Origin: an uncultured bacterium
GTDB taxonomy: Bacteria > Chlamydiota > Chlamydiia > Chlamydiales > SM23-39
Direction: 5' to 3'
DNA length: 45,460 nucleotides
Assembly: GCA_964400755.1 (NCBI GenBank)
Contig: CAYNVX010000001.1
Location: forward strand, 1-45,460
Shown here: positions 1,471-2,186 of the stretch, in pieces
Layout: each line of letters opens with the position of its first letter
Numbering within the stretch: the stretch's first letter is position 1
Notes under the pieces: model-generated
What the model was told of the DNA's origin: nothing
The model's input: the letters and a program-made list of their open reading frames with translations, nothing else
Databases searched by the model: none
Made by a program: the position numbers and the translations under genes

Positions 1471-1511
1471 TTTTTCACTAAATAGTAAAAATATTCAGGA
1501 GATTGAAAATG

Positions 1512-1886
1512 GTCAATCATGCCTGCCTAAAGGCAGACGCTTGTAAGATGACTTACAACGAGATGGGCACGAAAGTGCTTTGCAAGGGTTGATTAGGGAG
1601 CAAAAAGGAAACTTTATGCAGAAGTTATTAGTAGAGTTAAAGAACACACCAAGGGATGTACAATTACTCCTAGTACCTTGCTCTGTAAGTTTTTCATTAA
1701 ACAGAGAGGAAACTCTCAGTGTGGAGGACAAAGTACTGGCTAATAACAATCCCGAAGGAGTTCATTCCCGGCGTGCAGGGAGGTCATTAAAACCATTTAT
1801 GCACGCACATTTTAAACTTTGGAATTAAAGCAACCTAAAAAGGAGCGAGGTTTCCTCCCACCCATGAATGGATGGGTTTCCACCTC
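1512..1886 (-). mobile_element. Non-autonomous IS200/IS605-type miniature element (PATE/MITE-like) inserted directly after the SD-linked ATG of groES
   Basis: The block is visibly richer in G+C than its flanks and densely hairpinned. It is bounded by GTCAA at 1512-1516 and 1887-1891. The terminal hairpin 1857-1876 shares its flanks (GAAAcCCAT...GTGGGAG on the minus strand) with both end hairpins of the complete IS at 21.9-23.2 kb. The length is 375 nt (125 codons) and no convincing ORF is present. Strand is assigned from the LE-like TTGAC + ~10 nt + hairpin geometry on the minus strand. Confidence 0.5.
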
Positions 1887-1895
1887 GTCAAATGG

Positions 1896-2186
1896 ATGAA
1901 TAAAAAGATAAAGCCTTTAGCTAATAAAGTTTTAATAAAAAGATCTGTTGCTCAGATGTCAAAAGGAGGGATTTTACTTCCTGATTCAGCTCAAGAAAAA
2001 CCAAAGGTTGGCGAGGTTGTTGCTGTCGGACCTGGTAAAATAGATGATAAAGGTGCTTTGATCAAAATGTCTGTTAATATTGGGGATAAAGTTATTTTTT
2101 CATCATTTGCCGGAACTGAAGTAAAAGAAAATGAAGAAGAATTATTAATTCTGTCTGAAGACGATATTTTTGCAATTTTATCATAA
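1896..2186 (+). CDS. groES: Co-chaperonin GroES
   Basis: MNKKIKPLANKVLIKR...GGILLPDSAQEKP...GEVVAVGPG is the typical Cpn10 pattern, and the gene sits immediately upstream of groEL. The ORF track starts at the in-frame ATG 1872. Neither 1872 nor 1896 has an SD, and the ancestral start appears to be ATG 1509 (see findings). Confidence 0.9.
   Translation: MNKKIKPLANKVLIKRSVAQMSKGGILLPDSAQEKPKVGEVVAVGPGKIDDKGALIKMSVNIGDKVIFSSFAGTEVKENEEELLILSEDDIFAILS

What the first reader, a model, noticed from the sequence alone, without database searches (positions are those of the whole stretch)
1497..1898. A 375-bp IS605-like miniature element separates the groES SD and start codon from the rest of the gene
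Seen in sequence:
- AGGAG (1497-1501) plus 7 nt plus ATG (1509-1511) is a textbook initiation site 30-40 nt downstream of a TTGACA promoter. The frame it opens stops after 27 codons (TGA 1590).
- Recognisable GroES (MNKKIKPLANKVLIKR...) starts only at ATG 1896, with another in-frame ATG at 1872. Neither has an SD.
- The intervening block (1512-1886) is clearly richer in G+C than its flanks and packed with hairpins: 1523-1536 CTGCC/TAAA/GGCAG, 1541-1558 (7-bp stem), 1567-1578 GCAC-GAAA-GTGC, and 1846-1887 CGAGGT...ACCTCG enclosing 1857-1876.
- The block is bounded by GTCAA at 1512-1516 and 1887-1891.
- Read on the minus strand, TTGAC + 10 nt + hairpin (groES side) and hairpin + 10 nt ending in TTGAC (promoter side) mimic the LE/RE geometry of IS200/IS605 elements.
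- The groES-side hairpin shares its flanks with both end hairpins of the complete IS in this window.

Removing 1512-1886 (375 nt, exactly 125 codons) gives AGGAGATTGAAAATG GTC AAA TGG ATG AAT AAA. That is an in-frame MVKWMNKKIKPL... with ideal SD spacing. An offset AAATGG repeat (1507-1512 and 1890-1895) gives an alternative excision product that also restores an SD-ATG arrangement.

Inference: the only co-chaperonin gene here has been hit at its second codon by a non-autonomous transposon, yet remains an intact ORF. Its expression must now depend on something unusual.
Basis: partly seen in the sequence, partly recalled or inferred. Interest (0 to 1): 0.78.

Follow-up and report, generated by a model that had tools for sequence, protein, structure and literature searches.

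The report
Guide-RNA transposon wedged before groES start
A small protein-less relative of the transposons that gave rise to Cas9 sits between the ribosome-binding site and the start codon of the essential chaperonin gene groES, and it seems to carry a replacement ribosome-binding site that a DNA/RNA hairpin brings next to the start codon.

Summary
Window 1512-1767 is a gathering-score Rfam match to HEARO, the omega-RNA of IscB nucleases (86.3 bits, E 3e-16). Window 1846-1887 is the nested left-end hairpin typical of IscB-type IS200/IS605 elements. No IscB gene lies between them, so this is a solo, PATE-like element, which is a known kind.

Chlamydiota relatives keep the order namZ, CIRCE, promoter, SD, ATG-groES with no insert. 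The element therefore interrupts the groESL leader.

I move the right boundary. In 40 of 44 related left ends, a 6-8 nt linker and then WTRAA follow the hairpin. ATGAA is the reverse complement of TTCAT, the motif shown by experiment for a Geobacillus IscB element. The element is therefore 1512-1895 (384 bp), and the groES start ATG1896 is intact and is the target motif.

In related metagenome loci, 17 of 21 hairpin-adjacent ATGAA sites are gene starts, against 19% of control sites. AGGAG 1841-1845 abuts the hairpin. When the hairpin folds, this SD lies 8 nt from ATG1896. Five lineages share this layout, and all five sit at gene starts.

Element identity is about 0.9. The replacement-RBS mechanism is inferred, about 0.45. 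I found no IscB partner, second copy or empty site.

The parts
1396..1422 (+). CIRCE-like heat-shock operator (TTAGCAGAC-N9-ATTTGCTAA). It overlaps the namZ stop codon.
   Evidence: Read. The same 27-nt inverted repeat sits at the same place before groES in relatives L002, L003 and L005. Its function is inferred from the known CIRCE consensus (from memory).
1441..1470 (+). groESL promoter-like site, TTGACA-18-TATTAT. It would also transcribe the guide and the omega-RNA.
   Evidence: 11 of 12 matches. Relatives have TTGAC at the same position after CIRCE. No transcript data.
1497..1501 (+). Ancestral groES Shine-Dalgarno sequence (AGGAG). It now serves only ATG1509 and its 27-codon upstream ORF.
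   Evidence: The position matches the SD of relatives. It lies 10 nt from the element junction, as in other loci where the 5' flank carries an SD.
1496..1511 (+). Predicted omega-RNA guide: the 16 nt of host 5' UTR immediately 5' of the scaffold. It would match the empty groES site.
   Evidence: Inference from Meers et al.: the IscB guide is the flank 5' of the right end. Not shown here.
1509..1592 (+). 27-codon upstream ORF created by the insertion. It starts at the old SD-proximal ATG and runs into the omega-RNA.
   Evidence: frame of ATG1509, stop TGA 1590-1592.
1512..1895 (+). The element: a 384-bp protein-less IscB-type IS200/IS605 derivative (solo omega-RNA, PATE-like).
   Evidence: Left boundary: HEARO model position 1 and the start of conservation with relatives, GTCAA. 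Right boundary: family-wide hairpin + 6-8 nt + WTRAA. No ORF over 82 aa and no IscB domain inside.
1512..1767 (+). Omega-RNA scaffold (HEARO, RF02033). It includes the right-end motif GTCAA 1512-1516 and the right-end hairpin 1521-1538.
   Evidence: 86.3 bits, full model 1-211. 72-86% identical over the core to HEARO loci from metagenomes. Alignment A2.
1771..1806 (+). Extra hairpin (GCGTGCA...TGCACGC) after the Rfam-modelled part. It is probably the decayed 3' end of the omega-RNA and the start region of the lost IscB gene.
   Evidence: Relatives carry an ACTTGAGAGT-type hairpin here and the window does not. This reading is inference.
1839..1845 (+). Element-borne Shine-Dalgarno-like AAAGGAG, directly 5' of the left-end hairpin.
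   Evidence: AGGAG occurs about once per 1300 nt in the window. The same placement is seen in L093, L028, L118 and the GGGCAA family.
1846..1887 (+). Left-end nested hairpin: outer stem CGAGGT/ACCTCG, 5 nt, inner hairpin 1857-1876, 5 nt.
   Evidence: Alignment A1 with 21 other IscB-element left ends has 84.8% of cells paired against 55.8% when shuffled, and 13 of 14 pairs show compensatory change. Outer stem probability is over 0.9 as RNA.
1888..1895 (+). 8-nt left-end linker (TCAAATGG) between the hairpin and the target motif.
   Evidence: Linker length is 6-8 nt in 35 of 40 related left ends.
1896..1900 (+). Target-adjacent motif ATGAA (TTCAT on the top strand). This is the groES start codon plus 2 nt.
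   Evidence: TTCAT is the experimentally shown motif of Geobacillus ISGst5 IscB.
1896..2186 (+). groES, intact (MNKKIKPL..., 96 aa).
   Evidence: Relatives start MKKKIKPL, MNKIKPL or MNNKIKPL.
2211..3869 (+). groEL, co-transcribed downstream, with its own AAGGAG SD.
   Evidence: Synteny.
21890..23245 (-). Complete IS200/IS605 element (tnpA 22793-23188 on +, tnpB-like 21940-22794 on -). It is a possible source of TnpA acting in trans. The ends given are approximate.
   Evidence: Y1_Tnp 1.6e-38; TNB domain 7.5e-24. Hairpins. Weak left-end model match at 23195-23223. Whether it can move the groES element was not tested.

Best explanation
Window 1512-1895 is a 384-bp protein-less derivative of an IscB-type IS200/IS605 insertion sequence. 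It keeps three things: the right end with the omega-RNA (HEARO) scaffold, a few decayed bases in place of the iscB gene, and the left-end nested hairpin.

It lies in sense orientation in the 5' UTR of groESL in a Chlamydiota genome. It sits exactly between the ancestral SD (AGGAG 1497, plus ATG 1509) and the groES start codon ATG1896. That start codon is part of the element's target motif, ATGAA (TTCAT on the transposed strand).

Shown:
- the family identity of the RNA and of the left end;
- the absence of the insert in relatives with the same promoter and SD architecture;
- the family-wide rule of hairpin, then 6-8 nt, then WTRAA;
- the enrichment of such elements immediately 5' of gene starts.

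Inferred:
- The CIRCE-controlled groESL promoter transcribes through the element. No terminator-like site was found on the + strand. One transcript would then carry the guide (the last 16 nt of the old leader), the omega-RNA and groESL.
- groES is translated from ATG1896 using the element's own AGGAG (1841-1845). The 42-nt left-end hairpin folds and places this SD 8 nt from the start codon.
- The old SD now drives only a 27-codon upstream ORF.
- With an IscB supplied in trans, the RNA would direct cutting of the empty groES site and so protect the insertion. No IscB was found.
For: Identity of the RNA:
- HEARO match at the curated threshold over the full model.
- 72-86% identity to HEARO cores in metagenome loci, 30 of 51 of which are followed by an intact IscB-sized ORF.
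- The L093 ORF is an IscB: RRXRR and HNH domains, with relatives named RNA-guided endonuclease IscB.

Left end:
- The nested hairpin aligns with 21 others with strong covariation.
- It is found directly after IscB stop codons.

Boundaries:
- GTCAA opens every related scaffold.
- WTRAA lies 4-12 nt after the hairpin in 40 of 44 left ends, against 16.7 expected from shuffles.
- TTCAT is the experimentally shown motif for a Geobacillus IscB element, and the guide is the flank 5' of the right end.

Interrupted site:
- Relatives L002, L003 and L005 have namZ, CIRCE, TTGAC, -10, about 25 nt, SD, ATG-groES.
- L003 and L005 have 92-132 nt between namZ and groES. The window has 109 nt up to ATG1509 and 496 nt up to ATG1896.

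Habit of the family:
- 17 of 21 hairpin-adjacent ATGAA sites open ORFs of 60 codons or more, against 19.3% of 2495 control ATGAA sites (p = 2e-9).
- Rebuilt empty sites have in-frame stops 3-120 nt upstream.
- In 6 loci plus one weaker case, an SD lies 4-10 nt before the junction.

Replacement SD:
- GGAG or GAGG lies 0-7 nt before the hairpin in 14 left ends from 5 lineages. All have the ATG motif, and all 13 that can be evaluated sit at gene starts. Among about 31 left ends without such a motif, 5 sit at gene starts.
- By my count this is 5 of 5 lineages against 4 of about 18, Fisher p about 0.004.
- Effective spacing is 7-11 nt in most.
- Copies of one family in front of at least 7 different genes share the motif, so it belongs to the element.
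- Outer stem probability is over 0.9.
- No terminator-like site on the + strand of the element.
Against: - Only one copy is present in the 45-kb window. No empty-site allele or MVKW/MMNK protein is on record. The rest of the genome could not be reached.
- No IscB was found for this organism. None of the top 120 IscB relatives is labelled Chlamydiota.
- The window's omega-RNA lacks the ACTTGAGAGT-type hairpin that relatives have after the Rfam-modelled part, so it may be defective.
- For the SD bridge, predicted accessibility of AGGAG 1841-1845 is only 0.26-0.41, and that of AUG1896 is 0.01-0.40 depending on context.
- About half of the genes in the window have no SD, so groES might not need one.
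- Four lineages at gene starts have no such SD (L023, L009/L025, L073, L119).
- The motif definition and the lineage count were made after seeing the data.
- GTCAA at 1887-1891 equals the right-end motif.
Confidence: 0.7

Rival explanations
1. A 375-bp element (1512-1886) inserted next to TTGAC (GTCAA 1887-1891) after the first codon of an ancestral MVKWMNKKIKPL GroES. The gene then lost both its SD and its true start codon.
For: GTCAA occurs at both edges and equals the right-end motif. Removing 375 nt keeps the frame. ATG1509 has ideal 7-nt spacing from the SD. N-terminal extensions of 7-8 residues exist among relatives.
Against: None of 44 related left ends has its target motif flush with the hairpin. 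35 of 40 have a 6-8 nt linker and then WTRAA, and the window has ATGAA at +8. The nearest relatives start MKKKIKPL, MNKIKPL or MNNKIKPL, like MNKKIKPL from ATG1896. Removing 384 nt also keeps the frame.
Confidence: 0.15
2. Same element and boundaries, but groES is translated from ATG1896 without any SD, through the unstructured A-rich leader. The AGGAG next to the hairpin is chance, or a leftover of the iscB 3' region.
For: 22 of 41 long ORFs in the window have no SD-like motif. 1888-1915 is A-rich. Four lineages at gene starts have no SD before the hairpin. Predicted SD accessibility is modest.
Against: AGGAG occurs about once per 1300 nt, yet it abuts the hairpin here. The same placement recurs in 5 lineages, and all 5 sit at gene starts. 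groEL and the ancestral groES site both use strong SDs.
Confidence: 0.3
3. The insertion is a recent, mildly harmful or polymorphic event captured in one metagenome-assembled genome. GroES output is reduced, or is supplied by another copy or by cells with the empty site.
For: Single copy, single contig, and no close strain on record. A TnpA gene is present in the window.
Against: The ORF is intact and the family pattern shows such positions are tolerated repeatedly. Chlamydiae usually have one groES (from memory). No reads were available to test for polymorphism.
Confidence: 0.1
4. It is not mobile DNA but a conserved structured leader or riboregulator of groESL, or else an assembly chimera.
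For: The block is highly structured and lies inside a heat-shock leader.
Against: Relatives with the same leader architecture lack it, and Rfam finds nothing in their loci. It matches a transposon RNA family and a transposon left end. Its junctions fall exactly on the family's end motifs, which a chimera would not produce.
Confidence: 0.03

Closest known systems
IscB-type IS200/IS605 elements and their protein-less PATE-like derivatives (for example ISGst5 of Geobacillus stearothermophilus; Meers et al., bioRxiv 10.1101/2023.03.14.532601)
   Same: The omega-RNA scaffold is built from the right end, and the guide is the host flank 5' of it. Transcription must come from outside, which explains the sense orientation behind a host promoter. 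The target motif is TTCAT next to the left end. Protein-less copies that need TnpA and the nuclease in trans are known.
   Different: The host is a Chlamydiota genome. No IscB partner was found. The position is between the SD and the start codon of an essential gene. An SD-like motif abuts the left-end hairpin, and I did not find this described in the papers I could search.
HEARO RNA, Rfam RF02033 (Weinberg et al. 2009, not readable here; identified with the IscB omega-RNA)
   Same: Full-length match at the gathering score, starting with the GUCAA stem.
   Different: No HNH/IscB ORF follows. There is a 20-nt extra hairpin at 1565-1584 and a longer loop at 1659-1671. The terminal hairpin seen in relatives is missing.
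IStrons (IS605-family elements fused to group I introns; bioRxiv 10.1101/2023.11.20.567912, listed)
   Same: An IS200/IS605-family element that can sit in or at a gene without destroying its expression.
   Different: IStrons remove themselves from the mRNA by splicing. Here there is no intron core. The proposed rescue is at translation initiation, through an element-borne SD.
Split ribosome-binding sites of phage T4 genes 38 and 25 (from memory, not checked here)
   Same: A stable hairpin between the SD and the AUG shortens a long linear distance to a working spacing.
   Different: In T4 the hairpin is part of the gene's own leader. Here it is the transposase-binding end of a mobile element, and the SD travels with the element.
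IS200 left-end structures that control tnpA translation (Nucleic Acids Res 2015, PMC4513863, listed)
   Same: Hairpins at the end of an IS200-family element interact with a ribosome-binding site.
   Different: In IS200 the structure hides the transposase's own SD. Here the structure would present an SD to a host gene outside the element.

Membership tests
HEARO / IscB omega-RNA (RF02033) | Covariance-model score at or above the curated gathering score, over the full model | tested here: met
   86.3 bits against 83, model positions 1-211 of 211, E 3.4e-16 and 7.6e-18.
HEARO / IscB omega-RNA (RF02033) | An IscB (RRXRR, RuvC, HNH) ORF immediately downstream | tested here: not met
   No ORF over 82 aa lies between 1512 and 1895. 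Only 119-128 nt separate the scaffold from the element's end. 21 of 51 comparable loci also lack an intact ORF.
HEARO / IscB omega-RNA (RF02033) | Forms a guide RNA-nuclease complex that cuts DNA matching the 5' flank | not testable with these tools
   No IscB is available for this genome. None of the top 120 IscB relatives is labelled Chlamydiota. The terminal hairpin seen in relatives is missing.
IS200/IS605 (IscB-type) element or PATE | Imperfect subterminal hairpins at both ends, on one strand, with no terminal inverted repeats | tested here: met
   Right-end hairpin 1521-1538 and left-end hairpin 1846-1887. Both have a C-A mismatch on the + strand, which is a G-T pair on the minus (top) strand.
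IS200/IS605 (IscB-type) element or PATE | A fixed short motif next to the left end (TAM) and one at the right end (TEM), with no target duplication | tested here: met
   ATGAA lies 8 nt after the hairpin, and GTCAA is at 1512. The AAATGG repeat is offset by 383 nt and does not frame the element. The cleavage sites themselves were not shown.
IS200/IS605 (IscB-type) element or PATE | Evidence of mobility: more copies with the same ends, or an empty site | tested here: inconclusive
   No second copy in the window. The left-end 25-mer is absent from GTDB representative genomes. No empty-site protein is on record. The only 'empty' sites are those of about 70%-identical relatives.
IS200/IS605 (IscB-type) element or PATE | A Y1 transposase (TnpA) able to act on its ends | tested here: inconclusive
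   A TnpA gene is at 22793-23188. Its own end at 23195-23223 only weakly resembles the left end (22.5 bits). The right-end hairpins differ.
IStron | A group I intron core joined to the IS end | tested here: not met
   No intron match inside 1512-1895. The only weak hit is outside, on the other strand (19.5 bits, gathering score 50).
Hairpin-bridged (split) ribosome-binding site | An SD and an AUG far apart in sequence but 5-13 nt apart once an intervening stable hairpin folds | tested here: met
   AGGAG 1841-1845, a 42-nt hairpin with pair probability over 0.9 and -21 kcal/mol, then 8 nt, then AUG1896. This is geometry only.
Hairpin-bridged (split) ribosome-binding site | Translation depends on the SD and on the hairpin | not testable with these tools
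   This needs reporter or ribosome-profiling experiments.

The most novel reading that the evidence does not exclude
Some IscB-type insertion sequences are built to live between a host gene's ribosome-binding site and its start codon. Their target motif ATGAA is the commonest kind of gene start (Met-Lys or Met-Asn). This placement guarantees transcription of the guide and omega-RNA from the host promoter, and it makes the guide a copy of the host RBS region. The left end carries a replacement SD that the transposase-binding hairpin brings next to the host ATG, so even essential genes such as groES stay expressed. The same DNA hairpin would then serve transposition as DNA and translation as RNA.
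Probability: 0.4. Interest if true: 0.75.

Novelty: new member of a known kind. Interest (0 to 1): 0.6.

Why it matters
The element itself is of a known kind. Three things would make it matter.

First, it shows an IscB-type guide-RNA transposon in a Chlamydiota genome. It sits in the leader of the main heat-shock operon, so the guide RNA would be made with groESL and under CIRCE control.

Second, the comparison suggests a simple rule for part of this transposon family. The target motif is a start codon context, and insertions accumulate exactly in front of genes.

Third, it suggests a way these elements avoid harming their hosts, with a ribosome-binding site carried at the left end. If that holds, it would explain the reported orientation bias of IscB elements. 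It would also predict which genes they can enter, and it is directly testable with reporter constructs.

Tried and rejected
Searches that found nothing:
- An exact 25-mer of the left-end hairpin against the GTDB representative genomes gave 0 hits.
- A degenerate HEARO core pattern against the same collection also gave 0 hits. My gap of N{8,22} excluded the usual 7-nt loop, so this null says little.
- Exact-protein look-ups for NamZ, GroES (both starts) and GroEL found no other contig.
- The TnpA look-up found only a 954-bp Logan contig.
- blastn of the element against the plasmid and phage collections gave no match.
- blastn of the element against the window gave no second copy.
- Weinberg et al. 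2009 could not be read, and the 2010 paper does not mention HEARO.
- I could not confirm the IS608 geometry (cleavage 19 nt before the left hairpin and 10 nt after the right one) in a readable paper. I quote it from memory only. The window fits it with boundary 1895|1896.

Checks that were not decisive:
- RNA accessibility of the SD and AUG depends on the context chosen.

Readings I rejected:
- A housekeeping RNA, a riboswitch-like leader or a group I intron.
- ATG1872 as the start. It lies inside the hairpin arm and adds MGFHLVKW, which no relative has.
- The AAATGG repeat as a target duplication. Its 383-nt offset does not frame the element, and removing 383 nt puts ATG1509 out of frame with groES.
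Full report

Yes.
- AGGAG 1497-1501, then 7 nt, then ATG 1509. This opens a 27-codon frame ending at TGA 1590.
- The GroES-like ORF with in-frame ATGs at 1872 and 1896.
- Hairpins at 1523-1536, 1541-1558, 1567-1578 and 1846-1887.
- GTCAA at 1512 and at 1887.

The block has 40-46% G+C against 25-31% in its flanks. A promoter-like TTGACA-18-TATTAT site lies at 1441-1470.

**2. What is it?**

Rfam gives a full-length match at the curated threshold to HEARO at 1512-1767 on the + strand (86.3 bits, gathering score 83, E 3.4e-16, repeated). 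HEARO is the RNA now known as the omega-RNA, the guide RNA of the transposon-encoded nuclease IscB.

According to Meers et al.:
- The IscB omega-RNA scaffold is made from the transposon's right end.
- The guide is the host sequence just 5' of it.
- Transcription must therefore come from outside the element.
- Protein-less PATE-like copies that carry only such RNAs exist.

No ORF longer than 82 aa lies between 1512 and 1895, and none resembles IscB. This is therefore a solo element.

**3. Relatives of the element**

A generic HEARO core pattern found 3 viral and 120 metagenome loci. The window's scaffold is 72-86% identical to many of them over about 170 nt.
- Of 51 distinct loci with enough downstream sequence, 30 carry an intact IscB-sized ORF and 21 do not.
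- The L093 ORF is an IscB: RRXRR and HNH domains, with relatives named RNA-guided endonuclease IscB.

Directly after the IscB stop codon, many loci have a nested hairpin: an outer stem, 5 nt, an inner hairpin, 5 nt, then the outer stem again. Window 1846-1887 aligns with 21 of these.
- 84.8% of cells are paired, against 55.8% in shuffles.
- 13 of 14 pairs show compensatory changes.
- The register is sharply best at slide 0.

So 1846-1887 is a genuine IscB-element left end.

**4. Where does the element end?**

A model of the left end found about 48 copies in the fetched loci.
- In 40 of 44, a WTRA[A/T/G] motif follows 4-12 nt after the hairpin. Shuffles give 16.7.
- The offset is 6-8 nt in 35 of the 40.
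- The commonest motif is ATGAA.

ATGAA is the reverse complement of TTCAT. Meers et al. showed by experiment that TTCAT is the target-adjacent motif of the Geobacillus ISGst5 IscB element, lying 5' of its left end.

The window has the hairpin, then TCAAATGG (8 nt), then ATGAA at 1896-1900.

I therefore place the element at 1512-1895, a length of 384 bp. From memory, IS608 is cut 19 nt before its left hairpin and 10 nt after its right one. The window fits this with the new boundary (TTCAT, 19 nt, inner hairpin; right hairpin, then about 9-10 nt ending in TTGAC). I could not check those numbers in a readable paper.

I give it 0.15.

**5. What did it interrupt?**

The nearest GroES relatives are only about 70% identical, and all labelled ones are Chlamydiota. 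They share the gene order namZ-groES-groEL.

They also share a common leader: a CIRCE-like inverted repeat, TTGAC, a -10 box, about 25 nt, an SD, then the groES ATG. L003 and L005 have 92-132 nt between namZ and groES.

The window has the same series: CIRCE-like 1396-1422, TTGACA 1441, TATTAT 1465-1470, AGGAG 1497, ATG 1509. That is 109 nt after namZ. GroES itself begins 496 nt after namZ.

Rfam finds nothing in the relatives' loci. The insert therefore lies inside an otherwise conserved leader.

With my boundary, the ancestral site read AGGAGATTGAAAATG|ATGAATAAAAAG. ATG1896 (MNKKIKPL, like MKKKIKPL, MNKIKPL and MNNKIKPL in relatives) was already a start codon 10 nt from the SD. ATG1509 is an in-frame neighbour 7 nt from the SD. 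The gene was not cut. Its start codon is the target motif.

**6. A habit of the family**

Of 21 distinct hairpin-adjacent ATGA(A/G) sites, 17 open ORFs of 60 codons or more. Among 2495 control ATGAA sites in the same loci, the figure is 19.3% (binomial p = 2e-9).

The downstream genes differ from locus to locus. By their N-terminal sequences they look like a prolyl-tRNA synthetase, a PcrB-type enzyme, a glycosyltransferase, a phosphoesterase and a lipoprotein. I did not run domain searches on them.

Rebuilt empty sites have in-frame stops 3-120 nt upstream. In the window, L093, L025, L037, L043 and L052 (and weakly in L095) an SD lies 4-10 nt before the junction. Several independent insertions therefore sit between an SD and its ATG, as in the window.

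This fits the published need for outside transcription and the published orientation bias. I did not find the start-codon habit itself described in the papers I could search.

**7. How is groES expressed now?**

These points are shown:
- No terminator-like site lies on the + strand of the element.
- The outer stem of the left-end hairpin forms with probability over 0.9 as RNA.
- AGGAG 1841-1845 lies immediately 5' of the hairpin, so the folded distance to AUG1896 is 8 nt.
- AGGAG occurs about once per 1300 nt in the window.

There is also comparative support:
- GGAG or GAGG lies 0-7 nt before the hairpin in 14 left ends from 5 lineages. These are the GGGCAA family (found in front of at least 7 different genes), L118, L093, L028 and the window.
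- All 14 have the ATG motif, and all 13 that can be evaluated sit at gene starts.
- Among about 31 left ends without such a motif, 5 sit at gene starts.
- Collapsed to lineages by my own count, this is 5 of 5 against 4 of about 18 (Fisher p about 0.004).
- Effective spacings are mostly 7-11 nt.
- In full-length members (L093, L050) the motif lies between the IscB stop and the hairpin, so it belongs to the element.

My inference is that the element brings its own SD, and that the hairpin turns a 50-nt gap into a working spacing. From memory, this resembles the split ribosome-binding sites of T4 genes 38 and 25.

Several points count against this:
- Predicted SD and AUG accessibility is only moderate and depends on context.
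- 22 of 41 long ORFs in the window lack an SD, so SD-independent initiation on the A-rich stretch 1888-1915 is a live alternative.
- Some lineages at gene starts have no such SD.
- The motif was defined after seeing the data.

I put the mechanism at about 0.45.

**8. What the RNA would do**

If the groESL promoter reads through, the transcript carries the last 16 nt of the old leader (1496-1511) directly 5' of the scaffold. By the published model, that is a guide against the empty groES site.

Whether this matters here is unknown:
- No IscB was found.
- None of the top 120 IscB relatives is labelled Chlamydiota.
- The window's RNA lacks the ACTTGAGAGT-type hairpin that relatives have after the Rfam-modelled part.

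The old SD and ATG1509 now open a 27-codon upstream ORF that runs into the first stems of the RNA.

A complete IS200/IS605 element lies elsewhere in the window (tnpA 22793-23188, tnpB-like 21940-22794). Its ends only partly resemble this element's ends. Mobilisation in trans is possible but was not tested.

**9. Limits**

- The window is a whole 45,460-bp contig of a metagenome-assembled genome. Neither it nor any close strain could be found in the other collections.
- Copy number, the parent element, an IscB partner and polymorphism of the insertion all remain open.
- The loci used for the family statistics came from one DNA pattern and a capped scan, and they are partly related to one another.

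**10. Verdict**

The element is a new member of a known kind: a solo omega-RNA IS200/IS605 derivative. The parts worth following up are its position in front of an essential gene's start codon and the recurring SD-hairpin-ATG layout.

Noticed in passing
window 21890-23245: A complete IS200/IS605 element with divergent tnpA (131 aa) and a short tnpB-like gene (284 aa). Its end hairpins CCCACGGCTAAAGCC(G)ATGGG have an extra-helical base. It lies next to a DUF1494 (Chlamydia-family) gene. An identical TnpA is on a 954-bp contig from run SRR27925880 (L006).
   Followed up: partly
L044 489-790: This is the closest relative of the window's HEARO (86% identity). It is also without iscB and sits in a phage-like contig. 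It has no left-end hairpin and ends ATAATTTTGGAGGTTTTGC|ATG, that is SD, 6 nt, ATG, as if the hairpin had been deleted.
   Followed up: partly
L132 2200-3860 (also L133, L134): An IscB gene with its HEARO sits inside a conjugative-transfer operon (TraG-like, IscB, a 227-aa gene, TraJ-like). There is no left-end hairpin. The IscB stop is followed by 8 nt and then ATGAA of the next gene.
   Followed up: partly
L131 2180-3700: The host sequence ATCGGAGGA (an SD) occurs both just before the HEARO start and just after the IscB stop, where it serves the next gene's ATG. There is no left-end hairpin. This is unlike peel-and-paste insertion.
   Followed up: no
L079 4299-4366: A left-end hairpin is followed 16 nt later by GTCAATCACC, the start of another HEARO scaffold. 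This looks like two elements in tandem.
   Followed up: no
window 1760-1767 and 1894-1901: GUUCAUUC at the 3' end of the HEARO match is complementary to GGAUGAAU, which spans the groES start codon (8 pairs, two of them G-U). In one folding context this pairing hides AUG1896 (unpaired probability 0.01).
   Followed up: partly
window 1396-1422: The CIRCE-like operator overlaps the stop codon of the upstream namZ gene. Its half-sites (TTAGCAGAC / ATTTGCTAA) resemble those of Neptunichlamydia (L002) more than the canonical consensus.
   Followed up: partly
window 1565-1584: The window's omega-RNA has a 20-nt extra hairpin (GGGCACGAAAGTGCTTTGCA) in its 5' part. It is absent from all six aligned relatives.
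   Followed up: no
window 1379-1496 (-): A weak group I intron match (19.5 bits, gathering score 50, E 0.021) lies on the opposite strand, outside the element. I treated it as noise.
   Followed up: no
L024, L032, L037, L040, L048, L050, L052, L095 (two copies), L116: One family of mostly protein-less HEARO elements (382-437 bp, left end GGGCAATTCC...) lies in front of at least seven different genes. Each copy has ATTTTAAA..GAGGTA before the hairpin and AGATTATC-ATGAA after it. L050 is a 1.5-kb member with a decayed iscB.
   Followed up: partly
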